Notes under the pieces: model-generated
What the model saw: only the letters and a program-made list of their open reading frames with translations
Database searches by the model: none
Told to the model about the DNA's origin: nothing
DNA from: a bacterium
Lineage (GTDB): Bacteria > Sysuimicrobiota > Sysuimicrobiia > Sysuimicrobiales > Kaftiobacteriaceae
Length of the DNA: 49,617 bases
Reading direction: 5' to 3'
Assembly (NCBI GenBank): GCA_035693805.1
Contig: DASSGA010000169.1
Location: 1 to 49,617 of the forward strand
Made by a program: the position numbers and the translations under genes
Shown here: positions 19,204 through 33,646 of the stretch, piece by piece
How the letters are laid out: every line of letters starts with the position of its first letter
How positions within the stretch are numbered: position 1 is the stretch's first letter

Positions 19204-19581
19204 GTGACCCCGATCCGCGTCCTCCTCGTGGACGACAACGCCGGATACCGGCAGCGCCTCGCCCGCATCCTGGCGCTGCAGCAGGATCTCCAGGTGGTCG
19301 GCGAAGCCGCCGACGGGCATGAGGCGATCGCCCGGGCCCGGGACCTGCAGCCGGACGTCATCCTGATGGACTTCCGCATGGAGGGCCTCGATGGGTTCAC
19401 CGCGGCGCGCGCCATCGCGAAGGAGCTCCCCGCCATCAAGGTCTTCATGCTGACGGCATTCCCGGGGGCGCTCGACCAGGAGAAGGTGCAACGCGGAGGG
19501 ATCCAGGGACTGCTGATCAAGGATCAACCCGCCGCCGAGATCGTCGCGGCGATCAGAGCGTCGGTTCTTCCACGCGCGTAA
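19204..19581 (+). CDS. stand-alone receiver-domain response regulator
   Basis: IRVLLVDDNAGYR, DVILMDFRMEGLDG, KVFMLTAF. 125 aa with no output domain. GTG start. Confidence 0.85.
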   Translation: MTPIRVLLVDDNAGYRQRLARILALQQDLQVVGEAADGHEAIARARDLQPDVILMDFRMEGLDGFTAARAIAKELPAIKVFMLTAFPGALDQEKVQRGGIQGLLIKDQPAAEIVAAIRASVLPRA

Positions 19582-21235
19582 CGCGCAGCACTTCCTCCAC
19601 CGTCGTCATCCCGCGCAGCGCCTTCAGCAGGCCATCGGCGCGCATCGAGATCATGCCGTCGGCCCGGGCCGCCTCCGCGATGTCGGCGGCGGAGGCCCGG
19701 CCCAGGATGAGGTTCCGCACCGCATCGGTGGTCACCAGGATCTCAAAGATCGCCGTCCGTCCGCGGTACCCCGTGTGCCGGCACTGCGGGCAGCCCACCG
19801 CCTGATGGAAGGCGCGGTCGACGAGGCTCTCCGGGACGGAGGACTGCAGCCAGAGGATGATCTCGGGCGGCGCCTCGACGGGGCGCTTGCAGTGCGGACA
19901 GAGGACGCGCACCAGGCGCTGGGAGGCCACGCCGATCACCGCCGAGGCGGTAAGGAACGTTTCGATCCCCATGTCCACCAAACGGGACATCGCGCTCGAG
20001 CTGTCATTGGTGTGGATGGTGGTCAGCACGAGGTGGCCGGTGAGCGAGGCGTGGATGGCGATCCCCGCGGTCTCCACGTCTCGAATCTCACCCACCATGA
20101 TGATGTCGGGATCCTGACGCACGATGGAGCGCAATCCGGTGGCGAACGTGAGACCGGCCCGGGGGTTCACCTGGATGTGGCTCACGCCGGGCAGCTGGTA
20201 CTCCACGGGATCTTCGATCGTGATGATGTTCTTGTCCGCCGCGTTGAGCAGGGCGAGCGTGCTGACCAGGGTGGTGGTCTTCCCGCTGCCTGTGGGCCCG
20301 CTGACGAGGACGATGCCGTACGGCTGGCGGATGAGGCCCTCGAAGCGCCGCTGCGCCGACTCGTCCATGCCGAGCTCGGGGAGCGTGAGCAGCCCCCGCG
20401 CCTTGTCGAGCAGGCGCAGCGCTACCCGTTCGCCGAGCACGGTGGGGATCGTCGCGACCCGGATGTCGATGGCCCGGCCATCCAGATTCACCTCGAACGC
20501 GCCATCCTGCGGCAGCCGCCGCTCGGCGATGTTCAGCCGCGCGAGCACCTTGATGCGCGAGATGAGCGCGGGGTGCACGTTCTGGGGCACCTGCATCACC
20601 GTCTGCAGCACACCGTCGATCCGGTAGCGCACACGGATCTCGCCTTCTTCAGGCTCGATGTGCACGTCGCTGGCCCGGTCCTTCAGCGCCTGCTCCAGAA
20701 GCAGGTTGACGAGGCGCACGACGGGCGCGTCGTCGCCTTCCTCCGCCGCCGCAGCATCGGTCAGCTCCTCGACATCGGCGAGAACCGCCTGCGCCGCCGC
20801 ACCCATCCCGTAGGCACGTTCGATCGCGGAGGCGATGTCCGATTCCAGCGCGACCACGGGCTTGACGGACCGGCGGGCGGCGATCGCCACGTCGTCGATG
20901 GCGAAGACGTCGAGCGGATCCGCGATGGCGACGACCAGGCTGTCACCGTCCGCGGACACGGGAACGACACGCCGCTTGCGGGCCAGCCCTTCGGGCACGA
21001 GACGGATCACGGCGGGGTCGATGCGCTGGCTGGCCAGCGTGACGAACCGCAGGCCGAGCTGATCGGCCAGGGCCTGGGCGATCTGCCGCTCGGTGGCCGC
21101 CCGCATCTCTACCAGGACGCGACCCAGGCGTTCACGCGTCTTCCGCTGCCGGGTCAACGCCTCCTGCAGCTGCTCAGGCGTGACCACGCCGCTCTCGACC
21201 AGGATGTCGCCGATGCGCTTGCGTGGATTCCTCAC
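19553..21235 (-). CDS. pilB: type IV pilus extension ATPase PilB (GspE family)
   Basis: N-terminal GspE_N domain (RIGDILVESGVVTPEQLQEAL), Walker A SGPTGSGKTTT, and a tetracysteine CPHC...CPQC. GTG start. Confidence 0.92.
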   Translation of the reverse strand: MRNPRKRIGDILVESGVVTPEQLQEALTRQRKTRERLGRVLVEMRAATERQIAQALADQLGLRFVTLASQRIDPAVIRLVPEGLARKRRVVPVSADGDSLVVAIADPLDVFAIDDVAIAARRSVKPVVALESDIASAIERAYGMGAAAQAVLADVEELTDAAAAEEGDDAPVVRLVNLLLEQALKDRASDVHIEPEEGEIRVRYRIDGVLQTVMQVPQNVHPALISRIKVLARLNIAERRLPQDGAFEVNLDGRAIDIRVATIPTVLGERVALRLLDKARGLLTLPELGMDESAQRRFEGLIRQPYGIVLVSGPTGSGKTTTLVSTLALLNAADKNIITIEDPVEYQLPGVSHIQVNPRAGLTFATGLRSIVRQDPDIIMVGEIRDVETAGIAIHASLTGHLVLTTIHTNDSSSAMSRLVDMGIETFLTASAVIGVASQRLVRVLCPHCKRPVEAPPEIILWLQSSVPESLVDRAFHQAVGCPQCRHTGYRGRTAIFEILVTTDAVRNLILGRASAADIAEAARADGMISMRADGLLKALRGMTTVEEVLRVTRVEEPTL

Positions 21236-21244
21236 ATCACGCCC

Positions 21245-21291
21245 ATCTTAGGCACCCCCGCGGGGCAGCCACAATGGGCGGTTCGGCCTAC
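21245..21291 (-). promoter_or_regulatory. candidate pilB promoter (TTGTGG-18-TAAGAT) plus conserved upstream block
   Basis: Minus strand reads GTAGGCCGAACCGCCCATTGTGGCTGCCCCGCGGGGGTGCCTAAGAT. The -10 ends 9 nt before the GTG start, so there is little or no leader. Confidence 0.45.
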
Positions 21292-22379
21292 ACCTCCGCC
21301 TGGGTCAGGACGGCGGCCAGGACCCGGACATGGACGGCCGGAAACGCCGGACCCTCTCCCGCAAGCAGAGCGGTGACCAGCCCGCCGAGCCCGGCGGGAC
21401 GCAGGCCCCCGACGCGGCCGCAGGTCATGGCCTCGGTGTAGTCCGCGAGCGCAACCAGTTGGGAGACGGGGGCGGCGGTGGAGGGGCCTTCCACGATGAC
21501 GCGATGGTGCTCCATGGCTGCGATCATGGGCAGGCTGCGCCGCCCATCCAGGCGGCGGAGGAGGAGGCCCGCTTCGACGGCGTGCCGGGGAAGCGCGATT
21601 CGTACGGTGCGCGTGCGCTCGGCCAGGCGGTCCTGCCAGGGCAGCCGCGCCATCCCGATGTCGTGGAGGAAGGCGGCGACGCCGAGTTCGATCCGCTCCG
21701 GCCGGGCGAGACCGAGCCCGCGCGCGAGCTGCATCGCGAGGAAGGCGACGTTCACCGCGTGCGGCGGGTCGAGCTCATCGTGTCCCCGCAGCACGACCTG
21801 CGTCCACAGCGCGCGCGCATCCCCGCCGGAAGGGTCCAGGGTCTCCACCACGAGCTGCACCCGGCCCACGTCGAGCCGGTCCCCCCGTTCCACCGAGGCC
21901 GACAGTGCCGCGGCCGCGGAGAGGGCGGCGAGGTATTCGTCGGTCTCCGCGGGCAGCGCCCGCGTCTGCTCCGGGCCTTCGACCTCGATCCCGACCACGC
22001 CCGCCCTGCGCAGCGCGTCGGAGGTCCCACCGGAGGCGATGACCTCTTCCGGCTCGCGCGAGAGCAGTCGGATCGCCTCACGCAGGGCCCGCGGGTCCGC
22101 CTGCGCGGTAATGGTCAGGTGGGCCACACCCCGTGAGGTGAGATGATCGCGCAGCGGAAGGGCGTGCCGGTCGTCCGCGGGAAGCAGGGCCCCTTGCACG
22201 ATCAGCCAGTCCGCGGAGACGTCCCAGCGCACCGCGGGAGCTTGCGCGAGCGCGCTGTGCACCGCCGATTCGAAGGCGCGGATGCTCTCTTCAGCCGCAG
22301 GATGCTGCGGGCCGTAGTGACGGATCTGCCGGAGGGCGGCGTAGAGCGTGCGGGTCAGAGCCCCGGGAAGGGTTGTCAT
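21288..22379 (-). CDS. HD-domain phosphohydrolase (degenerate HD-GYP-like) with uncharacterised N-terminal module
   Basis: HAVNV...FLHDIGM...HAVEAG...AAMEHHRV...LADYTEAM with no GYP motif. Start MTTLPGAL overlaps the upstream stop (ATGA). The listed 510-aa ORF is an Arg/Gly-rich extension. Confidence 0.7.
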   Translation of the reverse strand: MTTLPGALTRTLYAALRQIRHYGPQHPAAEESIRAFESAVHSALAQAPAVRWDVSADWLIVQGALLPADDRHALPLRDHLTSRGVAHLTITAQADPRALREAIRLLSREPEEVIASGGTSDALRRAGVVGIEVEGPEQTRALPAETDEYLAALSAAAALSASVERGDRLDVGRVQLVVETLDPSGGDARALWTQVVLRGHDELDPPHAVNVAFLAMQLARGLGLARPERIELGVAAFLHDIGMARLPWQDRLAERTRTVRIALPRHAVEAGLLLRRLDGRRSLPMIAAMEHHRVIVEGPSTAAPVSQLVALADYTEAMTCGRVGGLRPAGLGGLVTALLAGEGPAFPAVHVRVLAAVLTQAEV

Positions 22380-24211
22380 GCCGGGCCCTCCTGCAATCGC
22401 GCCAGCGCGGCGGCGGCCTCCTGCCGCAGCTCCCCGCCCGCCCGTGACGCCACCTTGCGCAGCGCGTCCCCGCTCTCCGGGGCGCGCAGCCGGCCGAGCG
22501 CGCGGATCACCTCCCGCTTGAGGTCGAGCTGTTCGGAGATGGGGCTGCCCTCGAGGACGGCGATAAGGATCCCCGCGGCTTCCGGCCGCCCCAGCACGCC
22601 GAGCCAGTGCGCCGCGGCGGCCTGCGTCTCCCCATCGGGACGGAGCAGTACCTCCGCGAGCGCCTCCATGGCATCGGACGTACCGAGCTGGGAGGCGACC
22701 TGCATTGCCTCGCGCCGCACGTGCCCCCCAGGATGGCTCATCGCCGCGCGCAGCACCGGCATCATCTCTGGCCCACCGATCCGGCCCAGCACGGTCACGG
22801 CGTTCCGGGCGACATGCCACCGCGGATCGAGCGCGTGCGGAACGAGGAGATCCCCCCGGCCGGCGGCGAGATGCGCCAGCAGGTCGACGGCCCTGCCGCG
22901 CACCTGCAGGCGGTCGTCGTCGCCGGCGAGCTCGAGCAGGACGCGCACGGTCTCTTGGGGAGCCACTTGCATCGCCTGCACGAACGGATGGGCGGGACCA
23001 GGCGGGCGGGTCAGAGTCCGTTCGAACAGCTCCCCCGCGCCGAGGGAGAGCATGCGCTGCACCATCGCCCGCACGGCATCGGCTCGGGCGTCGGTGAGAG
23101 CGACGGCCGCACCGGTCAGGCCGTTCATCGCCGCAAGCAGCCCCGGCAGATCACCCTCCTGCACCATCACGACGACCGCGGCCTCGAGCTGGGCCAGGGC
23201 ACCCGCCAGCTCACCGGCACCGATCACCGGCAGCAACTCTCCCAACCGCCGCACCGCCTGCGCACGAAGCCGCCGCTCGTCCCATGCCGCGACGGCTGCC
23301 ATGGCCTCCTGCAGGTCTGCCGGCGATGGAGGCTCGACCACGGGCAGCGGCGTGGAAGGCGCCGTGCGATGGAAGGTCCGGAGGACCTCGGCCACGCGCC
23401 GGCCTTGTGCCTGCGCGGTCCCTCCGGCCTGCGACACGAGGCTCGCCGCCAGGACGGGCGGCCACTGCGAGGCGAGCGAAGCGGCCCACGGCTCATCCAC
23501 GGAGCGGACGATCATCGCGCACACCGCGGCCTGCCACGGGACGCGCAGCCCGGCAAGGCTCTGGCCGATCGCCTTCCATGCGTCGAGCTGTGCCTGGCGG
23601 GGCCGCGTCACGATGCGGCGATCGAAGGTCCTGAAGAGCTCGCGCATCGCCGCTTCGTCGCCGCCCGTCTGCCGCAGATAGGCGGTGATGCGGTCTGCGG
23701 CACCGGCGCCCACCGCCTCGAGCAGGGGCTCGAGCAGGTCCGCCCCGCGCGGGGGTGCGCCCCCGATGATCTCGATGAGCACGCTCCGTACGCCCCCGGC
23801 CCCGAGGAGGGCCCCCAACCCCCCGGCTCGCTGGATCTGGACCGGGGGGAGGTGGAGCGCGCTGACGAACTCGCCGAGCTCAGCGAGCGACACGCCGCGG
23901 AGGAACTGGACCGTGGGCGCGGCGCGGGCACGCAGGGCGCGGGCGAGATCGCCGACGACGTCGTCCACGTACGGCTCCGTGCGGAAATCGAAGACGAGTC
24001 CCTGCCCCGTCGCCGTGACGGCGAGCGAGCCATGGCCGGCTGTGTAGGCATCGATCGCGGCGCGGGCCGCCTGAAGCGCCTCGGCCGTTCGGGCGTGGTG
24101 CAGCGGGTACAGCCGGAGCGTCCGAAACGCGGAGGCGACCCCGCGCACGGCACGCCGGGCCGCCTCGAATCGGGCTACCTCCGCGCGTTCGGCCTCCCGA
24201 TCGCCACTCAT
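22376..24211 (-). CDS. uncharacterised all-helical protein with C-terminal HEAT-like repeats
   Basis: HEAT-type repeats (PRWHVARNAVTVLGRIGGPEMMPVLRAAMSHPGGHVRREAMQVASQLG...). Start chosen at MSGDREAE, 28 nt after the valS stop. The RBS is weak, so the start is uncertain. Confidence 0.62.
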   Translation of the reverse strand: MSGDREAERAEVARFEAARRAVRGVASAFRTLRLYPLHHARTAEALQAARAAIDAYTAGHGSLAVTATGQGLVFDFRTEPYVDDVVGDLARALRARAAPTVQFLRGVSLAELGEFVSALHLPPVQIQRAGGLGALLGAGGVRSVLIEIIGGAPPRGADLLEPLLEAVGAGAADRITAYLRQTGGDEAAMRELFRTFDRRIVTRPRQAQLDAWKAIGQSLAGLRVPWQAAVCAMIVRSVDEPWAASLASQWPPVLAASLVSQAGGTAQAQGRRVAEVLRTFHRTAPSTPLPVVEPPSPADLQEAMAAVAAWDERRLRAQAVRRLGELLPVIGAGELAGALAQLEAAVVVMVQEGDLPGLLAAMNGLTGAAVALTDARADAVRAMVQRMLSLGAGELFERTLTRPPGPAHPFVQAMQVAPQETVRVLLELAGDDDRLQVRGRAVDLLAHLAAGRGDLLVPHALDPRWHVARNAVTVLGRIGGPEMMPVLRAAMSHPGGHVRREAMQVASQLGTSDAMEALAEVLLRPDGETQAAAAHWLGVLGRPEAAGILIAVLEGSPISEQLDLKREVIRALGRLRAPESGDALRKVASRAGGELRQEAAAALARLQEGPA

Positions 24212-24239: not shown

Positions 24240-26930
24240 CTATCGGGCCGGCCCATCCCCCAGGGCCGCAGCGATCTCGTGCAGACGCTGCCTCCGGGCG
24301 CGCAGATCCTCAGCCCGTCCCTGCTCCCGTTCCACGACGTCCGCCGGCGCCCGCTGCACGAAGTCCGGGTTGTCGAGCCGGCGCTGCAGCGAGAGGAGCT
24401 CGGCATCGAGGTCGCGCAGGGCGCGGGCGAGCCGGTCCCGCTCTTTCGCGGGATCGACCAATCCGCCGAGCGGGATCGAGACCTCCACCCCGGACAGGAC
24501 GGCCGTCACGCTCTCCCGGGGCCGCGGCAAGGAGAGCGGCTCGATCGAGACCGGATCCGTCCGGGCCAGCGCGGCGAGATGCCGGCCGACGGGCGCCAGC
24601 AGGCGCCCCGAGGCCTCGTCTGCACGCACATGGACGCTGATGCGCTGTGATGGTGGGAGACCGAGCTCCGAACGGAGGCTGCGCAGGGCACGGACCACCG
24701 ACATCAGGGTGTCCATCATGCGATCGTGATCCGCGTCTACAGCATCCGGATCCGGCGCCGGCCATGGCGCGATCATGAGGCTGTCGCCATGGTGCGGAAG
24801 CTGCTGCCAGATCTCTTCCGTCAGGAAGGGCATGATCGGGTGCAGCAGCGCCATCGTGTCTGACAGTACGGACCACAGGGTGTGTTGGATGGCCGCGCGG
24901 CGGGCCGATCCCGAGGGCGCATCCTGGAGATCCACCTTCGCCATCTCCAGGTACCAGTCGCAGTACTCCGCCCAGATGAACTCGTACAGCGCCCGCGCCG
25001 CCTTGTCGAACTCGAACGCCTCGAGATGGGCCGTCACCGCCCGGCTCAGCTGAGCATGCCGGCTGCGGATCCAGCGGTCGGCGGGCCCCAGGTCCCCTGC
25101 GGCCGGAGCGCGGCGGTGGTCGAAACCCTCGAGGTTCATCAGCACGAAGCGCGTCGCGTTCCAGATCTTCGTGTTGAAGTTCCGCACATCCGCGATCATC
25201 TTCTCGTTGAAGCGCAGGTCTTGCTGCGCCTGCGAGCAGCGCGAGATGAGGGCGAAGCGCACCGCGTCGGCGCCGTACCCGCGCCCGTCGACCATCTCCA
25301 GCGGGTCGATCCCCGTCCCCAGCGACCTGCTCATGCGGCGTCCCTCGAGCGTCATCACGGTCGGCGCCACGTACACATCGGTGAACGGGACGTCGCCCAT
25401 GAAGTGCAGACCCATCATGATCATTCGGGCGACCCAGAGGAACAGGATCTCGTTCGCCGTGACGAGCACGTCGCCCGGGTAGAAGTACCGCAGGTCGGGC
25501 GTCTCCATCGGCCAGCCGAGCGTGGCAAAGGGCCAGATCCCCGAGCTGAACCAGGTGTCCAGCACGTCCGGGTCCTGCTTCACGGGCCCGCCGCCGCACT
25601 TCGGGCACCGCTCCAGCGGCGTTTTCGCGGCCGTGCGTTCCCCGCAGACGTCGCACTGCCACACGGGGATGCGGTGGCCCCACCAGAGCTGGCGCGAGAT
25701 GGTCCAGGGACGGATGTGGTCGAGGAACTGCAGCACGATCTTCGCCCAGCGCTCGTGGTGGAAGCGCACGCGGCCGCTCCGGATCGCCTCGGCCGCCCGC
25801 GCGGCCATCGACGTCATGTCGGCAAACCACTGGTCGCTGATGTAAGGCTCGATCACCGCATGGCAGCGGTCGCACGTCCCCACGTTCGTGCGGTAGGGTT
25901 CCACCCGCTCCAGCAGGCCCAGCGCCTGCAGATCCGCACCGACCGCCTTGCGCGCCTCGAAGCGGTCCTGACCGGCGTACTTCCCCGTGTCCGCGGTCAT
26001 CCGGCCCCTCGGGTCCAGGATGACCAGCGTCGGGAGTTTGTGATCGGTCCCGATCTCGTTGTCCATGGGGTCGTGCCCGGGCGTGATCTTAAGCGCGCCG
26101 GTGCCGAACTCGCGATCCACGCGCGTATCGGCGATCACGGGCACGCGCCGGTTCACGATGGGCACCACGACCTCCGTGCCGATCAGCGCGGCATAGCGCG
26201 GGTCCGCGGGATGCACGGCCACCGCCACGTCCGCCAGGATCGTCTCCGGCCGCTGCGTAGCGATGGTGATGCCCGGGCCGCCGCCTGCGCCGGGGTAGCG
26301 CACGTGCCAGAGCTGCGTGTCGACCTCAACGTGCTCCACCTCGAGATCCGAGATGGCGCTCTGGTCCCGCGGGCACCAGTTCACCATGCGCTTGCCGCGG
26401 TAGATGAGACCTTGATTGAACAGCCGCACGAACGCCTCGAGCACCGCGTCGTAATACGGCGGGTCCAGCGTGAAGATATAGCGGTCCCAGTCGCAGGAGA
26501 AGCCCATGCGCTTCAGCTGCTCGACGATGATGTTGCCGTACGTCTCTTTCCACTGCCAGACACGCTGCACGAAGCGCTCGCGTCCGAGCGCCTCGAGCGT
26601 CAGGCCTTCTCGGGCGATCTCCCGCTCCACGACGTTCTGCGTCGCGATGCCGGCGTGGTCCGTGCCCGGCTGCCACAGGGCGTTCCGCCCCTGCATCCGC
26701 CGCCAGCGGATGAGGACGTCCTGGATGGAGAAGGTAGAGGCGGTGCCGATGTGCGACTCGCCCGTCACGTTCGGCAGCGGCAGCATGATCACGAACGGAC
26801 CCCGGCTCGAGCCCCTCGTCCGGGACGGATCGACCAGGGCGCGGAAGTACCCGGCTCGCATCCACTCCGTGTAGCGCGGCATCTCGACCGCGCGGGGATC
26901 GTAGGTCGTCCGCAGTGTCCTGGTCGCCAT
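24240..26930 (-). CDS. valS: valine--tRNA ligase
   Basis: 896 aa with PNVTGESHIGTA (HIGH region), RMSRSLG (KMSKS region) and a C-terminal coiled coil. GGAGGGTGA SD. Preceded by a T-box leader. Confidence 0.95.
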   Translation of the reverse strand: MATRTLRTTYDPRAVEMPRYTEWMRAGYFRALVDPSRTRGSSRGPFVIMLPLPNVTGESHIGTASTFSIQDVLIRWRRMQGRNALWQPGTDHAGIATQNVVEREIAREGLTLEALGRERFVQRVWQWKETYGNIIVEQLKRMGFSCDWDRYIFTLDPPYYDAVLEAFVRLFNQGLIYRGKRMVNWCPRDQSAISDLEVEHVEVDTQLWHVRYPGAGGGPGITIATQRPETILADVAVAVHPADPRYAALIGTEVVVPIVNRRVPVIADTRVDREFGTGALKITPGHDPMDNEIGTDHKLPTLVILDPRGRMTADTGKYAGQDRFEARKAVGADLQALGLLERVEPYRTNVGTCDRCHAVIEPYISDQWFADMTSMAARAAEAIRSGRVRFHHERWAKIVLQFLDHIRPWTISRQLWWGHRIPVWQCDVCGERTAAKTPLERCPKCGGGPVKQDPDVLDTWFSSGIWPFATLGWPMETPDLRYFYPGDVLVTANEILFLWVARMIMMGLHFMGDVPFTDVYVAPTVMTLEGRRMSRSLGTGIDPLEMVDGRGYGADAVRFALISRCSQAQQDLRFNEKMIADVRNFNTKIWNATRFVLMNLEGFDHRRAPAAGDLGPADRWIRSRHAQLSRAVTAHLEAFEFDKAARALYEFIWAEYCDWYLEMAKVDLQDAPSGSARRAAIQHTLWSVLSDTMALLHPIMPFLTEEIWQQLPHHGDSLMIAPWPAPDPDAVDADHDRMMDTLMSVVRALRSLRSELGLPPSQRISVHVRADEASGRLLAPVGRHLAALARTDPVSIEPLSLPRPRESVTAVLSGVEVSIPLGGLVDPAKERDRLARALRDLDAELLSLQRRLDNPDFVQRAPADVVEREQGRAEDLRARRQRLHEIAAALGDGPAR

Positions 26931-26956: not shown

Positions 26957-26993
26957 GGAAATAGATAACGCCCCGTCCACAGGACGGAGCGTT
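26957..26993 (-). terminator. T-box leader intrinsic terminator
   Basis: Minus strand AACGCTCCGTCC-TGTG-GACGGGGCGTT, a 12-bp stem with one G-U, followed by ATCTATTTCC. Lies immediately 3' of the T-box sequence. Confidence 0.7.
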
Positions 26994-27272: not shown

Positions 27273-27962
27273 ATGAGCACCGATGTCGACTCTCTGATCG
27301 CGGCGATGCTGGAGGCCCAGTGGCCCCAGCCGGTCGACCTCGCCCGTCTCCGTGCCGTGGCCGGCGAGGCGGTCGTGCGCCTCGTCGACCGGCTGGAGCA
27401 TGAGCCGGGGGCGCTGCGGCGCCGCCGCATCTGTGAGCTGCTCGCGGACGTCGTCGCCGGGGATCCGGGGCGTCTCGCGCCATACCTCCGCACCCCCTCG
27501 TGGTACCTGGCCCGCAACCTGGTCTACGTCCTGGGCGAGATACGCAGCCCGGGGGCCGTCCCGCACCTGGCGGCGCTGGCGCGCCACCCGGAGTATCGCG
27601 TGCGGCGCGAAGTGATCGACGCCCTGCAGAAGCTTGGGGGCGGCGCGGCGCGGGCGGCGCTGGCCGTCTTCTTCGAGGATCCGGACGCGCGGATCCGCCG
27701 CCACTGCATCGACGGCATGGGCGCCGTCTACGATCCGCACGTGGCTGGGTGGCTGCTCACGATCGTCCGGTCGCGCGATTTCACCCCCGAAGGCACCTCG
27801 CTGAAGGAAGCGGCGGTGGCCGCCCTGGCCCGGATGCGGGCCGACGAAGCGCGGCCGGTGCTGGAACGGGTGGCGCGCCGGCGGTGGGTGTTCGGGCGCG
27901 GGCGGAAGCTCTTGCAGGACGCGGCGCGCGGCGCGCTCGCGCAGGCCTACTCTTCCAGGTAG
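27273..27962 (+). CDS. HEAT-repeat protein, paralog of the C-terminal third of the 611-aa protein
   Basis: PSWYLARNLVYVLGEIRSPGAVPHLAALARHPEYRVRREVIDALQKLG is collinear with residues of the ORF at 22376..24211. 229 aa. Confidence 0.7.
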   Translation: MSTDVDSLIAAMLEAQWPQPVDLARLRAVAGEAVVRLVDRLEHEPGALRRRRICELLADVVAGDPGRLAPYLRTPSWYLARNLVYVLGEIRSPGAVPHLAALARHPEYRVRREVIDALQKLGGGAARAALAVFFEDPDARIRRHCIDGMGAVYDPHVAGWLLTIVRSRDFTPEGTSLKEAAVAALARMRADEARPVLERVARRRWVFGRGRKLLQDAARGALAQAYSSR

Positions 27963-29785
27963 ATCACTCGGCGCAGCTCTTCCATGCCTGTCGTCCCGTC
28001 GAGCACGCGGGCCGTGGCCGCGCCGCTGATCGCATTCATGCCGCTACTGATCGCGGCCTCGCGCAGCGCCGTGGCGGGCTTGCGCGCCAGCACGAGCTCA
28101 CGGATCACCTCGTTCATCCTGAAGATCTCCATCACCGACAGCCGTCCCTTGTACCCTGTCTGCTCGCATTCCCGGCAGCCCACAGGCCGGTACAGCGTCG
28201 GCCGGCTGTCGGCGGGCAGGCCGAGCTCGGTGACGATGTCCCGAGATGCCTCGTAGGGCAGCCGGCAGCCCTGGCAGAGGCGGCGCATCAGGCGCTGGCC
28301 GATCGTGGCGATGAGCGAGCTCGTGATGAAGTACGGCTCGATGCCCATGTCCACCAACCGGACGACCGAGCCCGAGGCGTCGTTCGTGTGCAGGGTACTG
28401 AAGACGAGGTGGCCGGTCAGCGCGGCATGGACGGCGATCTTCGCCGTCTCCGCGTCGCGGATCTCCCCCACCATGATGATGTTCGGATCCTGCCGCAGCA
28501 TGCTGCGCAGGCCGGTGGCGAACGTCATGCCGGCGCGCGGCCGGACCGGAATCTGCGAGATGCCTTCGATGTAGTACTCCACCGGGTCCTCGATGGTCAT
28601 GATGTTGCGGCTGGGATCATTCACGCGCTGCAGGCAGGAGTACAGCGTGGTCGTCTTGCCGCTGCCTGTCGGCCCCGTGACGAGGATCATCCCGTGGGGC
28701 TTGCGGATGATCGTGTCGATGATCAGCTCCTGGTCCGGCGGGATACCCAGGCGGTCCAGTCCGACCAGGACGTTCGACTTGTCGAGCAGCCGCATCACGA
28801 CGCGTTCGCCGAAGGCCGTGGCCGTGATGCCGACGCGCACGTCGTACTCGCGATCGCGCAGGCGCATGCTGATCCGGCCGTCCTGCGGCTTGACGTGTTC
28901 GGCGATGTCGAGCGCGGCCAGGATCTTGATGCGGCTGACCACCGCGGCATACATCAGCCTCGGGATCAATGCTTTGTCGTAGAGCAGCCCGTCGATGCGG
29001 TAGCGCACGCGGGCCTGCTGGGCGTGGGGCTCGAGGTGGATGTCCGTGGCCCGCCCGGTGATCGCTCCCTGCAAGATGGAGTCGACCATCTGGATGACCG
29101 GCGGGGCGGCCTCGTTGCCGAGGACCAGGACCTCTCCGGCGCCGTTCTCCCCGGGGCTCTCGCTGAACTCGATCGCGTCCTGCAGCGCAGCGGCGTGATT
29201 GACCTTGCCGCCGACGTCGTCGTAGAGCTGGGCCATCGCCCACTCCAGATCCGTCTCGGTCGTGAAGACCGGCAGCACGCGGAGCCCCGTCGCCCGGGAG
29301 ATCTCATCGATGGCGAGGATGTCGGAAGGATCGGCCATCGCCACGATCAGCTCGCGGTCCTCCTGGCGGATGGGCAGGGCCATGAGGCGGCGGACGAAGG
29401 GCTCGGGAAGGATCTTGGCGATGTGGACGTCGATGGGTTCGGCGGTCAGGCTGACGTACTCGTAGCCCTGCTGCAGGGCGAGCCACCGGCCGGCCTCGCC
29501 CTTGGCGAGCAGCCCGCGCTCGATGAAGATCTGGGCCAGCCGCTTGCCGGTCCGCTTCTGCTCCTCGAGGGCCTCCGACAGCTGAGCCTCGGTGATCACC
29601 CCGGAGTCCAGGAGCAGCTCCCCCAGACGTTTGTTCGACTTAGCGGTAAACGCCCGGGCGGTGGCCATCGGCACAGGGGAATCAGAGGCAACTGGCGTGC
29701 CACGGTCGGGAGAACGAGGAAAGACGGCGGAGGGGTCTTCCTCCGCCGTCATCTCCACGGGGGGGCTCTGGTCGTCTTTGCGCAT
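27947..29785 (-). CDS. second GspE/PilB-family secretion ATPase
   Basis: GspE_N (RLGELLLDSGVITEAQLSEAL), Walker A TGPTGSGKTTT, tetracysteine CQGC...CREC. GGAGGGG SD before MRKDDQ. Shorter starts at MTAEED or MATARAF are possible. Confidence 0.9.
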   Translation of the reverse strand: MRKDDQSPPVEMTAEEDPSAVFPRSPDRGTPVASDSPVPMATARAFTAKSNKRLGELLLDSGVITEAQLSEALEEQKRTGKRLAQIFIERGLLAKGEAGRWLALQQGYEYVSLTAEPIDVHIAKILPEPFVRRLMALPIRQEDRELIVAMADPSDILAIDEISRATGLRVLPVFTTETDLEWAMAQLYDDVGGKVNHAAALQDAIEFSESPGENGAGEVLVLGNEAAPPVIQMVDSILQGAITGRATDIHLEPHAQQARVRYRIDGLLYDKALIPRLMYAAVVSRIKILAALDIAEHVKPQDGRISMRLRDREYDVRVGITATAFGERVVMRLLDKSNVLVGLDRLGIPPDQELIIDTIIRKPHGMILVTGPTGSGKTTTLYSCLQRVNDPSRNIMTIEDPVEYYIEGISQIPVRPRAGMTFATGLRSMLRQDPNIIMVGEIRDAETAKIAVHAALTGHLVFSTLHTNDASGSVVRLVDMGIEPYFITSSLIATIGQRLMRRLCQGCRLPYEASRDIVTELGLPADSRPTLYRPVGCRECEQTGYKGRLSVMEIFRMNEVIRELVLARKPATALREAAISSGMNAISGAATARVLDGTTGMEELRRVIYLEE

Positions 29786-29829: not shown

Positions 29830-32244
29830 CTATGACAACATCTGCTGGCTCGGCTGCTGGCCGGGCCGGATCGAGCTCGGCCCCACCGCCGGCGGGACGA
29901 CCCGCTGCGTGACGGCCGGCGCCGGGACCAGGGCTTCCGCGAGCACCTGGTCCATGTGCTCGACGAACACGAAGTGCAGCTTCTTGCGCACGTGCGCCGG
30001 GATCTCGATGAGATCCTTCTCGTTCTCCTTCGGCAGGAGCACGGTGCGGATCCCCGCCCGGTGGGCGGCCAGGACCTTCTCCTTGACGCCGCCGATGCCC
30101 AGGACCTTGCCGCGGAGGGTGATCTCTCCGGTCATCGCGACCTCGCGCCGGACCGGTCGCCCGGTGACCACGGACGCGAGCGCTGTTGCCAGAGTAATGC
30201 CCGCGGACGGACCGTCCTTAGGCACCGCGCCGGCCGGGATGTGGATGTGCACGTCGTACTTCTGGTAGAACTCCTCGTCGATGCCCAGGCGCCGCGCGCG
30301 GGAGCGGACGTAGGAGACCGCGGCCTGGCCGGACTCCTTGAGCACATCCCCGAGCTGGCCGGTGAGGGTCAGCTTTCCCTCCCCGCGCATCAGGGTGGCT
30401 TCCACCGAGACGATGTCTCCGCCCATCTCGGTGTAGATGAGCCCGGTGGCCGTGCCCACTTCGTCTACCTGCTCCGCCAGCCCGTACCGGAACTTCACCG
30501 GCCCCAGGAACTTGTGCAGGTTCTGGTTGGTCACCCGCACCGTCGTGGCCTTGCCGGTGGCGACCTCGGTCGCCACCTTGCGGAAGATCCCGGCGATCTC
30601 GCGCTCCAGGTTGCGCACGCCGGCCTCCCGGGTGTACTCGCGGACGACCTTCTTCAGCGCGTCCTCGGTGAACGCCACCTGCTCCGGCTTCAGGCCGTTC
30701 TGCGTCAGCTGCTTCGGGATGAGGAACTGCTCGGCGATCTTGATCTTCTCTTCCTCGATGTACCCCGGGAACCGGATGACCTCCAGGCGGTCCCGCAGCG
30801 CCGGCGGGACGGTATCGAGGATGTTGCCGGTGCAGATGAACATCACCTCGGACAGATCCATCGGCAGCTCGAGGTAGTGGTCGCTGAACGCGCTGTTCTG
30901 CTCCGGATCGAGCGCCTCCAGCAGCGCCGAGCTGGGATCGCCGCGCCAGTCCATGCCGAGCTTGTCGATCTCGTCCAGCATGAAGACCGGGTTGCGGGTC
31001 GCGGCCGTCTTCATGCCCTGCACGATGCGGCCGGGCAGCGCGCCCACGTACGTGCGGCGGTGCCCGCGGATCTCGGCCTCGTCCCGCACGCCGCCCAGGC
31101 TGATCCGCACGAACTTGCGGCCCAAGGCGCGCGCGATGGACTTGCCCATCGAGGTCTTGCCGACCCCGGGCGGCCCGATGAAGCAGAGGATCGGCCCCTT
31201 GCTCTGCGGCGCGAGCTTGCGCACGGCCAGGTACTCGATCACGCGCTCCTTGGGCTTGTCCAGGCCGTAATGGTCCTGGTCCAGGATCCGCCGGGCCTCG
31301 GCGATGTCCAGCCGGTCCTCCGTCCGCACGGTCCACGGCACGGCCAGGATCCAGTCGAGATACGTGCGCACCACGACCGCCTCGGCCACCATCGGCGGCA
31401 TCTTCTCCAGCCGGGTGAGCTCCTCGAGCGCCTTCTCCTTGACGTGGTCGGGGAGGTTCGCGGCCTCGATCTTCTTCTTATACTCGGCCACCTCGCTCTG
31501 GCGCTCGTCGCTCTCGCCGAGCTCCTGCTGGATGGCCTTCATCTGTTCCTTCAGGAAATACTCGCGCTGGGACTTCTCCATCTGCTTCCGCACGCGGTTC
31601 TGGATCTTGCGCTCCAGTTCGAGGATGTTCACCTCGCGGGTGAGGATCTGGCTCAGCAGGTCCAGCCGGTCCTTGGGGGCGATCTCCAGCAGCTGCTGGC
31701 GCTCCTCGATCTTGAGCGGCAGGTGCTGCGCGATCAGGTCGGCGAGCTTGCCCGGCTCCTCCGCCTGGATCACGACGGCGTACTGTTCGGGCGCGATACT
31801 GCGGCTGTACCGGGCGAAGCGTTCGAACTGGGAGAGCACACCCCGCATCAGCGCCTCGACCTCGAGGGGCTTCTCCCCCGGATCCGGCTGCTGGCGCACC
31901 CGGACCTCGAAATAGGGCTCGTCGCGCTCGACGTGCTCGATCGCCCCCCGCACCAGCCCTTCCACGATGACCTGCAGCACGCCGTCGGGCTGCTTGCCGA
32001 CCTGCAGGATGCGGCAGATCGTCCCCACCGTGTAGATGTCCGCCGGGCGGGGCTCTTCCAGGTCGTCCTGCTTCTGGGCGGCGAGCACGATGATGCGGTC
32101 CCCGGCCAGCGCCGTCTCGAGCGCGCGGAGCGACTTCTGGCGCCCGACCCCGAGGGGCGCGATCTGGTGGGGCATGACCACCGTGCCCTTCAGCGGGAGC
32201 AGCGGCAGCACGTCCTTGATCGTCACGTCACTCTGTTCCGCCAA
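29830..32244 (-). CDS. lon: ATP-dependent Lon protease (LonA)
   Basis: [15 protein letters not shown]-domain, [17 protein letters not shown]. Start set at a TTG preceded by AAGGAGGG with 6-nt spacing. The ATG at 32301 (ORF track) has no RBS. Confidence 0.93.
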
Positions 32245-32303
32245 CGGATACCCTCCTTGGGAACGACGAAGGGGGACGCGATGATCCCCCCTCCAGTCCA
32301 TGC

Positions 32304-32368: not shown

Positions 32369-33646
32369 CTAGGCTGGCTTCTCCTTGGCCATCTTCTTGA
32401 GATCTGCGCCGGTGAGCAGCACCGGGTCGCGCTTGCGCTGCACCGAGTCGTCCGTCACCACGCAGCGCTTCACATCCGGCCGGGACGGGATCTCGTACAT
32501 GATGTTCAGCATGATGTCTTCGATGATCGTACGCAGTCCCCGCGCTCCGGTATGCCGGCCCATCGCCTCGCGGGCGATCGCGCGCAGCGCGTCGTCCGTG
32601 AAGACCAGCTCGACGCCGTCCATCTCGAGGATCTTCTGGTACTGCCGCACGAGCGCGTTCTTCGGCTCGACCAGGATGCGCACAAGGTCGGCCTCATCGA
32701 GGGGTTCGAGCGGGACGACCACCGGCAGGCGGCCGATGAACTCCGGGATGAGCCCGTAGCGCAGGAGGTCCTGCGGCATGACGTGCGAGAGCGTCTCGGA
32801 GAGCGAGGCCTTGCTCTTCGGCATCACCTGCGCGCCGAACCCGATCGCGGTCTGCCGGATGCGGCCCTCGATGAGGCGGTCGAGGCCCTCGAAGGAGCCG
32901 CCGCAGATGAACAGGATGTTCGTCGTGTCGATCTGGATGAACTCCTGATGCGGGTGCTTTCGCCCGCCCTGCGGCGGAACGTTGGCCGTGGTCCCTTCCA
33001 GGATCTTCAGGAGCGCCTGCTGGACGCCCTCGCCCGAGACGTCGCGCGTGATGGAGGGGTTCTCGGACTTGCGCGCGATCTTGTCCGTCTCGTCGATGTA
33101 GATGATCCCCCGCTCGGCCTTCTTCACGTCGAAGTCGGCGGCCTGGATCAGACGCAGGAGGATGTTCTCCACGTCCTCGCCCACGTAGCCGGCCTCGGTG
33201 AGCGAGGTCGCGTCCGCGATGGCGAACGGGACGTCCAGGATCTTGGCCAGGGTCTGGGCGAGCAAGGTCTTGCCGCAGCCGGTGGGGCCGATGAGCAGGA
33301 TGTTGGACTTCTGCAGCTCGACGTCGCTCGCGCGGCGGCCGCCGATGCGCTTGAAGTGGTTGTAAACGGCCACGGAAAGGGCCTTCTTCGCCCGGTCCTG
33401 CCCCACGACGTACTGGCAGAGCGTGTCGTAGATCTCGCGGGGCTTCGGGGTGCTGCGCGGCCCGGCGGCCTCGCCCTCCCCGTAGAGCTCCTCCTCGATG
33501 ATCTCGTTGCACAGCTCGATGCACTCGTCGCAGATGTACACGCCGGGGCCGGCCACCAGCTTGCGCACCTGTTCCTGGGACTTGCCGCAAAACGAGCACT
33601 TCAGCTTCTCGCCGTCCCCGAACCGGAACGTCCGCTCCCGCGTCAT
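32369..33646 (-). CDS. clpX: ATP-dependent Clp protease ATP-binding subunit ClpX
   Basis: Zinc finger [26 protein letters not shown], Walker A GPTGCGKT, and IGFG-like loop AIGFGAQ. Confidence 0.97.

What the first reader, a model, noticed from the sequence alone, without database searches (positions are those of the whole stretch)
21288..24211. Translationally coupled HEAT-repeat protein and degenerate HD phosphohydrolase sharing an N-terminal module, wedged between valS and pilB
Two minus-strand ORFs overlap by ATGA (22376-22379). They fill the space between valS (28-nt gap) and pilB (52-nt gap).

The 611-aa product is all-helical and ends in HEAT-like repeats. The 363-aa product ends in an HD core (HAVNV, LHDIGM, HAVEAG, MEHHRV, LADYTEAM). 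That core keeps the H-HD-H-HH-D pattern but has no GYP motif.

By eye, their first ~130 residues are collinear:
- ALRQIRHYGPQHPAAEESIRAFESAV vs AFRTLRLYPLHHARTAEALQAARAAI
- GGTSDALRRAGVVGIEVE vs GGLGALLGAGGVRSVLIE

This looks like one shared module fused to two different outputs. I know of no characterised system with this layout. Its position suggests a nucleotide-signal or partner-switch module acting on the PilB extension ATPase.
Basis: partly seen in the sequence, partly recalled or inferred. Interest (0 to 1): 0.72.

Follow-up and report, generated by a model that had tools for sequence, protein, structure and literature searches.

The report
Paired HEAT and HD proteins beside PilB
Two overlapping genes next to a pilus motor gene start with the same unannotated 135-residue domain; they are a local, trimmed-down version of a two-gene HEAT-repeat plus HD-GYP (cyclic-di-GMP phosphodiesterase) cassette that is conserved across many bacterial phyla and appears to be undescribed.

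Summary
ORFs 22376-24211(-) (611 aa) and 21288-22379(-) (363 aa) overlap by ATGA. They lie 28 nt after valS and 52 nt before a PilB-type ATPase.

**Shared module.** BLASTP sees no N-terminal similarity. Family profiles align over 131 gapless columns (hhalign 97.4%, E 1e-11; controls about 1%).
- The module has no Pfam, NCBIfam or PDB-sequence match.
- It folds with pLDDT 96 and has no Foldseek neighbour in the PDB (best E 0.29).
- It hits 5,642 of 1.84 billion cluster representatives.

**It is a conserved cassette.** In 79 species genomes, named for about a dozen phylum-level groups, the order [module-HEAT] then [module-HD] is almost universal. Only one locus with enough upstream sequence lacks the partner. 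Most HD partners there are true HD-GYP enzymes.

**Other architectures.** The module occurs in tandem in about 1,400-aa GGDEF-AAA_16-...-HEAT proteins. It also forms about 300-aa module-module proteins that sit directly upstream of pilB in 7 of 7 loci.

**Window clade.** It lost the GYP loop and the HDxGK lysine but kept every metal ligand. It is the only clade with the cassette beside pilB.

**Reading (inferred).** The modules pair the two proteins into a c-di-GMP-signalling complex, recruited here to PilB. Pairing, catalysis and the effect on PilB are untested.

The parts
22376..24211 (-). Partner A gene: 611-aa module / helical middle / HEAT-repeat protein
   Evidence: ORF and translation. 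Start supported by homologues P0019-P0024. HEAT_2 E 9.6e-18.
23759..24172 (-). Shared N-module, copy in partner A (aa 14-151)
   Evidence: hhalign 97.4%, E 1e-11 against the HD-family module. Local hmmsearch hit at 23765-24166.
22952..23758 (-). Clade-specific middle region of partner A (aa 152-420); aa up to about 325 are kept in the fusion proteins P0026-P0029
   Evidence: Alignment. phmmer hits only in window-clade loci. No Pfam match.
22388..22951 (-). HEAT repeats of partner A (aa 421-608)
   Evidence: Pfam HEAT_2. alphaRep/HEAT chains in the PDB at E down to 1e-17.
22376..22379 (-). ATGA stop/start overlap, with AGGAGG 8 nt upstream of the ATG
   Evidence: Sequence read. 32 of 67 cassettes in other genomes have an NTGA junction.
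21288..22379 (-). Partner B gene: 363-aa module / HD phosphohydrolase (HD-GYP-derived, GYP-less)
   Evidence: AF2 pLDDT 88.7. Best Foldseek hits are HD-GYP structures 4mcw, 9rbz and 4r8z.
21966..22379 (-). Shared N-module, copy in partner B (aa 1-138)
   Evidence: AF2 of the module alone gives pLDDT 96.2, pTM 0.89. No PDB fold neighbour.
21345..21821 (-). HD catalytic domain (aa 187-345). Ligands H207, H239 D240, H266, H291 H292, D313. HDIGM replaces HDxGK, and the loop after HH is 7 residues shorter than in the HD-GYP P0017 and lacks GYP.
   Evidence: Invariant columns and alignment. Motif census.
19553..21235 (-). PilB-type assembly ATPase immediately downstream (52-nt gap)
   Evidence: T2SSE E 1e-136 and MshEN E 1e-23. 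TIGR02538/TIGR02533 hits just below their equivalog cut-offs.
21059..21217 (-). MshEN-type c-di-GMP-binding motif region of PilB (aa 7-59)
   Evidence: NF053729 scores 73.1 bits against a cut-off of 38. Half-site 1 fits the published relaxed pattern; half-site 2 has Arg in place of the turn Gly (motif from PMC5013675).
24240..26930 (-). valS immediately upstream (28-nt gap). No terminator-like site in either short gap between valS and pilB.
   Evidence: The order valS-HEAT-HD-pilB is kept in L001-L003 and L008-L014.

Best explanation
**What it is.** The two genes encode the two subunits of a widespread, so far unannotated, two-protein cassette of cyclic-di-GMP signalling.
- Each subunit begins with a paralogous alpha/beta domain of about 135 residues.
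- Partner A continues into a helical region and HEAT repeats, which are a protein-binding scaffold.
- Partner B continues into an HD-GYP-type metal-dependent phosphohydrolase.

**How it most likely works (inferred).** The two N-modules pair with each other. This makes a heteromer in which the HEAT scaffold positions or gates the HD enzyme. Translational coupling helps to make the two subunits in matched amounts.

**What is special here.**
- In the window's lineage the cassette sits in a type IV pilus locus, directly upstream of a PilB ATPase whose N-terminus carries an MshEN c-di-GMP-binding motif.
- The HD domain has lost the GYP loop and the HDxGK lysine but keeps every metal ligand.
- I therefore read it as a PilB-directed regulatory complex. 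Its nucleotide chemistry is altered or reduced compared with a canonical c-di-GMP phosphodiesterase.
- The module pair, not the enzyme, looks like the part that matters for PilB.

**Shown versus inferred.**
- Shown: module homology, cassette conservation, the fusions, the GYP loss, and the pilB adjacency.
- Inferred: physical pairing, the effect on PilB, and the catalytic status.
For: **Module homology.** hhalign gives 97.4%, E 1e-11, over 131 gapless columns.

**Cassette conservation (79 GTDB species loci).**
- 67 loci have an upstream same-strand module gene and 1 has a fusion.
- 7 loci lack enough upstream sequence to judge.
- Only L045 has more than 6 kb upstream and no partner.
- The median distance from the upstream stop to the start of the HD-side module is 75 nt.

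**Link to c-di-GMP.**
- 70 of 87 HD partners carry HDxGK and HH...GYP, and sampled ones match Pfam HD_5.
- The module also lies inside GGDEF-AAA_16-module-module-HEAT proteins of about 1,400 aa.

**Fusions that put two modules in one chain.**
- P0026-P0029 and L013 join the N-half of partner A to the whole of partner B.
- P0032-P0037 are complete module-module proteins of about 300 aa.

**PilB link.**
- Gene order valS-HEAT-HD-pilB is kept down to 42% identity (L001-L003, L008-L014).
- Module-module genes abut or overlap a pilB orthologue in 7 of 7 loci; the orthologue compared (L090) is 57% identical to the window's PilB.
- PilB matches NF053729 above its cut-off.

**HD domain.**
- Metal ligands are invariant.
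- The closest solved structures are HD-GYP domains at probability 1.0.
Against: - No direct evidence that the two modules touch. I could not run a multimer prediction, and the structure tool returns no inter-domain contacts.
- Module HMMs built from partner A and partner B copies do not separate cleanly. Only 10 of 27 two-module proteins score as 'A then B'.
- None of the 72 more distant species loci (L015-L086) has pilB within about 7 kb. PilB is therefore not the general target of the cassette.
- L004, a relative with true HD-GYP partners, has two cassettes in the same pilus locus but no pilB beside them.
- The second MshEN half-site of the adjacent PilB departs at the conserved glycine, so c-di-GMP binding by this PilB is not assured.
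- Invariant metal ligands argue that the HD domain is still an enzyme, which sits awkwardly with the idea that it is dispensable.
Confidence: 0.55

Rival explanations
1. **Parallel sensors, no complex.** The N-module is a ligand-binding or homodimerising sensor domain, used like PAS or GAF. The two proteins respond separately to the same signal. They are neighbours only because the sensor was duplicated and the genes are co-regulated.
For: - The module is an autonomous, confidently folded alpha/beta domain placed N-terminal to output domains, as sensor domains usually are.
- Only Y22 and G117 are nearly invariant across the family, which could mark a small ligand site.
- Partner A and partner B copies are not sharply distinct.
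Against: - Two independent sensors would not need to stay adjacent, in fixed order and often overlapping, across about a dozen phylum-level groups.
- Repeated fusion of two modules in one chain, and stand-alone module-module proteins with no output domain at all, are better explained by a paired unit.
Confidence: 0.2
2. **Active local phosphodiesterase.** Partner B is still a working cyclic-dinucleotide (or linear pGpG) phosphodiesterase. Its job is to drain the messenger pool around the MshEN domain of PilB. The HEAT partner only tethers or regulates it. Loss of GYP changes substrate preference rather than abolishing activity.
For: - All seven metal ligands, plus E290, R198, H200 and D201, are invariant in 17 members down to 27% identity.
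- The fold is closest to the active HD-GYP enzymes PmGH and PA4781, and to the GYP-less c-di-AMP phosphodiesterase PgpH.
- PilB carries the c-di-GMP-binding motif.
Against: - The GYP region and the HDxGK lysine are conserved in most other cassettes and are missing precisely in the pilB-linked clade.
- Bd1817, which lacks only the GYP tyrosine, is described as unconventional (PMC3188283).
- Sister lineages drop the HD domain entirely yet keep the module pair next to pilB.
Confidence: 0.3
3. **No functional tie to PilB.** The valS-cassette-pilB order is inherited synteny in one clade and says nothing about function. The cassette acts on some other, unknown target, as it must in the many genomes where no pilus gene is nearby.
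For: - pilB is within 7 kb only in L001-L003, L008-L014 and the window.
- valS, which has no obvious functional link, is just as tightly conserved on the other side.
- L004 keeps the cassettes but not the adjacent pilB.
- All-against-all clustering of flanking ORFs found no third gene common to all phyla.
Against: - The reduced module-module genes keep the immediate, often overlapping, junction with pilB in 7 of 7 loci, while valS is no longer adjacent where the upstream genes were read (L088, L090, L091).
- Even L004 places its cassettes inside the pilus regulatory cluster (REC, RR, GAF kinase, pilC).
Confidence: 0.2

Closest known systems
HD-GYP cyclic-di-GMP phosphodiesterases with N-terminal input domains (RpfG type; structures PmGH 4MCW, PA4781 4R8Z, DvhD 9RBZ)
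   Same: - The C-terminal domain has the same fold; these are the top Foldseek hits at probability 1.0.
- It has the same H...HD...H...HH...D ligand set.
- Most orthologous cassettes elsewhere carry true HDxGK / HH...GYP enzymes.
   Different: - The window protein lacks the GYP loop and the lysine, and scores below the HD_5 gathering cut-off (15.1 against 27.2 bits).
- Its input domain is not REC, PAS or GAF. It is an unannotated module shared with a separately encoded HEAT-repeat partner.
- No solved HD-GYP protein has this N-domain.
Bd1817, the 'unconventional' HD-GYP of Bdellovibrio (PDB 3TM8; PMC3188283)
   Same: - An HD-GYP-family protein with a non-consensus GYP region and an intact binuclear metal site.
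- It carries an uncharacterised N-terminal domain.
- There is a weak sequence match over the first HD helices.
   Different: - Bd1817 keeps the extended loop (G-P, missing only the Tyr). The window family has shortened the loop.
- Its N-terminal domain (aa 1-78 plus linker helices) is not matched by the module profiles.
- No HEAT partner is described for it.
FimX-PilZ-PilB complex of Xanthomonas (PMC8389850)
   Same: Accessory proteins derived from c-di-GMP-metabolising families that act on the pilus extension ATPase PilB.
   Different: - Entirely different proteins: a degenerate GGDEF-EAL protein plus a PilZ adaptor.
- The interaction there is demonstrated experimentally; here it is inferred only from gene order.
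- The comparison rests on the abstract listed and on general knowledge.
MshE / PilB / PilF ATPases with MshEN c-di-GMP receptor domains (PMC5013675, PMC11731258, PMC6957770)
   Same: The adjacent PilB has the MshEN domain and matches the NCBIfam c-di-GMP motif model above its cut-off.
   Different: Those systems sense c-di-GMP directly, with no dedicated neighbouring HD/HEAT pair. In the window's PilB only half-site 1 fits the published pattern.

Membership tests
HD superfamily (Pfam PF01966) | Profile match above the gathering score | tested here: met
   40.4 bits against a cut-off of 22, E 4.1e-10, residues 207-318.
HD-GYP subfamily | HD-GYP-type fold: closest solved structures are HD-GYP domains | tested here: met
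   Foldseek top hits are 4mcw, 9rbz and 4r8z at probability 1.0. E-values are modest (0.004-0.03), and the best TM-score, normalised to the target, is 0.58.
HD-GYP subfamily | Metal ligands H...HD...H...HH...D | tested here: met
   H207, H239, D240, H266, H291, H292 and D313 are invariant in 17 sequences.
HD-GYP subfamily | Extended HHExxDGxGYP signature | tested here: not met
   The sequence reads EHHRVIVEG-PSTAAP, with no G[YFW]P and a loop 7 residues shorter than in the HD-GYP P0017. All 11 window-clade sequences lack it, while 70 of 87 HD ORFs overall have it. The consensus is taken from PMC3188283.
HD-GYP subfamily | HDxGK lysine | tested here: not met
   The window clade has HDIGM or HDxGL, whereas most other cassettes have HDxGK.
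HD-GYP subfamily | Pfam HD_5 (PF13487) above the gathering score | tested here: not met
   15.1 bits against 27.2. Cassette relatives P0049 and P0062 pass.
HD-GYP subfamily | Hydrolysis of c-di-GMP | not testable with these tools
   Needs an enzyme assay.
HEAT-repeat proteins (Pfam PF13646 HEAT_2) | Profile match above the gathering score | tested here: met
   64.7 bits against 27.7, in two stretches. alphaRep chains in the PDB match at E 1e-17.
[module-HEAT] + [module-HD-GYP] cassette (defined here) | Both proteins start with the shared module; genes adjacent on the same strand with the HEAT gene first | tested here: met
   The same arrangement occurs in 67 of 79 species loci, plus 1 fusion.
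MshEN-type PilB (the neighbouring gene) | T2SSE ATPase plus MshEN domain plus c-di-GMP motif model | tested here: met
   PF00437 E 1e-136 and PF05157 E 1e-23. NF053729 scores 73.1 bits against 38.
MshEN-type PilB (the neighbouring gene) | Two tandem 24-residue half-sites fitting the published pattern | tested here: inconclusive
   Half-site 1 (RIGDILVESGVVTPEQLQEALTRQ) fits the relaxed pattern. Half-site 2 has Arg where Gly/Ala/Ser is expected.
Partner-switching modules (STAS antagonist / anti-sigma kinase / PP2C) | Presence of STAS, HATPase-type kinase or PP2C domains in the pair | tested here: not met
   No such Pfam hits at E up to 1 in either protein.
Known anti-phage defence systems (PADLOC) | Significant match to a defence-system model | tested here: not met
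   Only weak generic HD matches to Cas3 HD (E at best 4e-5, about 20 bits) and one weak HEAT match.

The most novel reading that the evidence does not exclude
The roughly 135-residue module may be a new signalling domain of the cyclic-di-GMP network that works as an obligate pair. The pair is a heterodimer when split between the HEAT and HD-GYP proteins, and a pseudo-dimer when tandem in one chain. The paired unit itself would be the functional core: a receptor or adaptor that binds PilB, or the messenger. That would explain three things. It is attached to both the degrading (HD-GYP) and the synthesising (GGDEF) enzymes. It survives next to pilB after both output domains are lost. It has no relative among solved structures.
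Probability: 0.3. Interest if true: 0.8.

Novelty: new variant of a known kind. Interest (0 to 1): 0.62.

Why it matters
**Inputs and partners of HD-GYP enzymes.** HD-GYP phosphodiesterases are the less understood of the two classes of c-di-GMP-degrading enzymes, and what controls them is largely unknown outside a few REC- or PAS-linked examples. This finding points to three things:
- a large subfamily with a fixed, separately encoded HEAT-repeat partner;
- an unannotated shared domain that probably joins the two proteins;
- the same domain pair inside giant GGDEF-STAND-HEAT proteins.

If the modules do pair, this would be a general way of assembling c-di-GMP enzymes onto scaffolds.

**A natural dissection series.** The window's lineage offers a stepwise reduction: full cassette, then GYP-less HD, then fused protein, then bare module pair. 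All of these except the full-cassette relative (L004, which still lies inside the pilus cluster) sit beside PilB. This makes it directly testable which part acts on the pilus motor.

**A practical target.** The domain is a good candidate for a new family entry and for structure determination. The AF2 model is very confident and has no neighbour in the PDB.

Tried and rejected
- **Pairwise BLASTP** of the two proteins found no N-terminal similarity. Profiles were needed.
- **Naming the module.** Pfam at E up to 10, NCBIfam, and PDB sequence profiles built from 11 and from 57 sequences gave nothing credible. The only hit below E 0.1, to the designed protein Octarellin, reflects a beta-alpha repeat pattern.
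- **Foldseek of the module against the PDB.** Best E 0.29, TM at most 0.29. The PelD, phytochrome-GAF and Tlp3 hits at the top are not significant, so I do not call the fold GAF-like.
- **Genome scan with the broad module alignment.** I used the HD-family alignment instead.
- **Partner A versus partner B module HMMs.** Built from 55 cassettes outside the window clade, to ask whether tandem modules are ordered 'A then B'. Only 10 of 27 were. It is clear for P0033-P0037 but inconclusive for the GGDEF proteins.
- **Search for a third universally linked gene.** All-against-all BLAST clustering of flanking ORFs found only promiscuous REC/kinase clusters and clade-specific neighbours.
- **Promoter, terminator and Rfam scans of 19-28 kb.** No promoter-like site, no terminator-like site in either short gap between valS and pilB, and no RNA family.
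- **Anti-phage defence reading.** Rejected.
- **Classical partner switch.** Rejected, because the required domains are absent.
- **Literature.** Searches for HD-GYP together with HEAT found nothing relevant.


Full report
**1. What is in the sequence**

The window has about 70% G+C. Its closest public relative is the MAG 'Armatimonadetes bacterium RBG_19FT_COMBO_69_19'. That genome's HD protein is 95% identical (P0001), and its contig has the same gene order (L008).

Reading the minus strand from high to low coordinates, the genes are:
- clpX (32369-33646) and lon (29830-32301);
- a first PilB-like ATPase (27947-29785);
- a small HEAT_2 protein on the plus strand (27273-27962);
- valS (24240-26930);
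- the 611-aa HEAT protein (22376-24211);
- the 363-aa HD protein (21288-22379);
- a second PilB-like ATPase (19553-21235);
- on the plus strand, a GAF-HisKA_3 kinase, a REC-GerE regulator and a single REC protein.

- 28 nt lie between the valS stop and the ATG at 24211.
- An ATGA overlap at 22376-22379 has an AGGAGG 8 nt upstream of the ATG.
- 52 nt lie between the HD stop and the GTG of pilB.
- No terminator-like or promoter-like site falls in either short gap between valS and pilB.

Homologue N-termini support both start codons.

**2. The shared N-terminal module is real**

BLASTP of the two proteins finds no N-terminal match. I built family alignments from the few close homologues found: 18 for the HD protein and 13 for the HEAT protein.

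The profiles of the first roughly 140-165 residues align with 97.4% probability and E about 1e-11. The alignment runs over 131 columns without a gap, pairing HD residues 8-138 with HEAT residues 21-151. The same profiles compared with the middle region of the HEAT protein give about 1%.

In the combined alignment Y22, H26 and G117 are invariant, and R20, L80, L106, G118 and G127 are nearly so.

**3. The module is widespread and unannotated**

- A profile of the combined alignment was searched against 1.84 billion cluster representatives. It found 5,642 proteins at E up to 1e-3 and 1,292 at E up to 1e-10.
- Module sequences have no consistent Pfam hit at E up to 10, and the full-length proteins show no NCBIfam match over the module region.
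- PDB sequence profiles find no credible relative.
- AlphaFold2 on a 57-sequence alignment of the module alone gives pLDDT 96.2 and pTM 0.89. The model is alpha/beta: two long helices, a small sheet of four strands, and short helices.
- Foldseek against the PDB finds nothing better than E 0.29 and TM 0.29.

By these tests the domain has no described family and no solved structural relative.

**4. Architectures that carry the module**

- (a) Module, variable helical region, HEAT repeats; 550-830 aa.
- (b) Module, bona fide HD-GYP (Pfam HD_5; HDxGK ... HH...GYP); 450-490 aa.
- (c) Module, GYP-less HD; about 370 aa. This is the window's family.
- (d) GGDEF, AAA_16, module, module, ..., HEAT; about 1,400 aa.
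- (e) Fusions of the N-half of the HEAT protein to the whole HD protein (P0026-P0029, 719-732 aa; also L013).
- (f) Proteins of about 300 aa that are only module-module (P0032-P0037).

**5. The pair is a conserved cassette**

A scan of one genome per GTDB species with the HD-family alignment returned 79 loci. Their record titles name Armatimonadota, 'ANGP1', Gemmatimonadota, Nitrospirota, Acidobacteriota, Zixiibacteriota, Ignavibacteria, Planctomycetota, Hydrogenedentota, Latescibacterota, Eisenbacteria, Rokubacteria, Actinobacteria/Coriobacteriia, Chitinivibrionia, Thermodesulfobacteriota and Trichlorobacter lovleyi.

I searched six-frame ORFs of these loci with local HMMs. The results were:
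- 67 loci have a same-strand, module-bearing gene directly upstream of the module-HD gene.
- 1 locus has the fusion.
- 7 loci have too little upstream sequence to judge.
- In 3 loci the HD hit and its module fell in different ORF segments.
- Only L045 has more than 6 kb upstream and no partner.

The upstream stop lies a median of 75 nt before the start of the HD-side module hit, so intergenic gaps are close to zero. 32 of 67 junctions read NTGA. Called-gene tables for L004, L005 and L006 show the same HEAT_2-then-HD_5 order, with a 4-nt overlap or a short gap of 25-34 nt.

70 of 87 HD ORFs carry HH...G[YFW]P, and most of them also have HDxGK. Clustering of the flanking ORFs revealed no third gene shared across phyla.

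**6. What is special in the window's clade**

All 11 window-clade sequences (the window, L001-L003 and L008-L014) lack GYP and have HDxGM or HDxGL. The seven metal ligands are invariant.

The AF2 model of the full protein has pLDDT 88.7. Its closest solved structures are the HD-GYP domains PmGH (4MCW), DvhD (9RBZ) and PA4781 (4R8Z), followed by the GYP-less PgpH. The loop after HH is 7 residues shorter than in the HD-GYP relative P0017. According to the Bd1817 paper, the GYP region is a 20-residue insertion that replaces a short loop of generic HD proteins (PMC3188283).

The same 11 loci are the only ones with pilB within about 7 kb. Gene-order tables show valS-HEAT-HD-pilB followed by REC, REC-GerE, a GAF kinase, pilC and pilins.

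L004 is a relative whose partners are true HD-GYP enzymes. It has valS, two tandem cassettes and then the same regulators and pilC, but no pilB at that spot.

**7. The module pair tracks pilB**

P0032, P0035 and P0037 are complete module-module proteins with stop codons inside their contigs. In L088 to L094 each is followed at once by a PilB orthologue, often with overlap. The downstream genes give phmmer E-values near 1e-200 against the window's PilB, and the L090 copy is 57% identical to it. That is 7 of 7 loci, although L089 shows only the PilB N-terminus.

The loci can be arranged as a reduction series:
- full cassette with HD-GYP;
- GYP-less HD (the window);
- fused protein without HEAT repeats;
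- bare module pair.

The constant neighbour of pilB across this series is the pair of modules.

**8. PilB as a possible target**

The adjacent PilB has T2SSE and MshEN domains. It matches the NCBIfam 'cyclic di-GMP-binding, MshE-related' model at 73.1 bits against a cut-off of 38.

Against the published 24-residue motif (PMC5013675):
- the first half-site, RIGDILVESGVVTPEQLQEALTRQ, fits the relaxed pattern;
- the second half-site has Arg at the turn glycine.

The other PilB copy in the window has a strict first half-site. c-di-GMP binding to PilB-type ATPases is established in other organisms (PMC5013675, PMC6957770, PMC11731258; listed).

**9. Mechanism**

Shown:
- The N-modules of the two proteins are paralogous.
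- The gene order is fixed and coupled across many phyla.
- Two modules have been fused into one chain repeatedly.
- The module is attached to both c-di-GMP-degrading and c-di-GMP-making domains.
- The clade has lost GYP while retaining the metal ligands.
- The module pair stays adjacent to an MshEN-type PilB.

Inferred:
- The two modules bind each other, so that the HEAT scaffold and the HD enzyme form one complex.
- In this lineage the complex acts on PilB, or alongside it.

I put about 0.8 on 'the two proteins work together as a cassette of c-di-GMP signalling'. I put about 0.55 on pairing through the modules, and about 0.4 on a direct functional link to PilB.

Whether the HD domain is active is open. 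Intact ligands argue yes. Loss of the GYP loop and the lysine, and later loss of the whole domain in sister lineages, argue that its chemistry is no longer central.

**10. Comparison and novelty**

The HD domain is a derived member of the HD-GYP lineage that fails the signature tests for that subfamily. The HEAT region is ordinary. PilB is an ordinary MshEN-type ATPase.

What I could not find described, in Pfam, NCBIfam, the PDB or the held literature, is threefold:
- the shared domain;
- the obligate HEAT partner of a large set of HD-GYP proteins;
- the module-module proteins next to pilB.

I class the finding as a new variant of a known kind: c-di-GMP turnover enzymes with accessory or input modules.

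The literature library is limited to open-access papers, and InterPro and CDD could not be consulted. A prior description elsewhere cannot be excluded.

Noticed in passing
window 27273-27962 (+): A 229-aa stand-alone HEAT_2 protein, 35% identical over 191 aa (E 1e-21) to the HEAT region of the 611-aa protein. It is a module-less paralogue. It converges on, and overlaps by 16 nt, the 3' end of the other PilB-like gene. It is conserved in L002 and L008.
   Followed up: partly
window 27947-29785 (-): A second PilB/GspE-type ATPase (T2SSE plus MshEN) whose first MshEN half-site fits the strict pattern (RLGELLLDSGVITEAQLSEALEEQ). It is preceded by lon and clpX. The locus therefore has two extension-type ATPases flanking valS and the pair.
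   Followed up: partly
window 26967-26993 (-): A 12-bp GC-rich hairpin followed by a T-rich tail, 37 nt upstream of the valS start (26930). It looks like a leader attenuator, but no Rfam family (for example T-box) reaches its gathering score.
   Followed up: partly
window 35894-37012 (-): A 372-aa ORF with a PilB-like ATPase core (phmmer hit at 36233-36946). It is probably a PilT-type retraction ATPase. It was not examined further.
   Followed up: no
L001 1-2656; also L010 and L011 (upstream of valS, opposite strand): ANGP1-type genomes carry a second, divergently oriented cassette next to the GYP-less one: a 680-aa HEAT protein plus a 464-aa HD_5 protein overlapping by 4 nt. The canonical and the reduced cassette therefore coexist at one locus.
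   Followed up: partly
L004 271-7410; L053 4713-12199: Two complete cassettes in tandem in single genomes, one an unclassified MAG (GCA_016210785.1) and one a Nitrospirota MAG. This indicates recent duplication of the whole two-gene unit.
   Followed up: no
P0051, P0061, P0093 and others; L087 2623-6867: Proteins of about 1,400 aa with the order GGDEF, AAA_16 (STAND-like ATPase), module, module, HEAT. In L087 the gene overlaps a downstream 923-aa ORF by 4 nt. Their taxonomy and partners were not determined.
   Followed up: partly
L090 915-8080; L091: In the loci with module-module proteins, pilB is followed by a Wzy_C (O-antigen-ligase-like) gene and pilC. In L090 a prepilin peptidase gene and a 277-aa secreted-looking protein with no Pfam match lie upstream.
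   Followed up: no
L005 2677-3621 (-): In one distant cassette locus the nearest neighbour is a PilZ-REC protein, which is another c-di-GMP receptor type.
   Followed up: no
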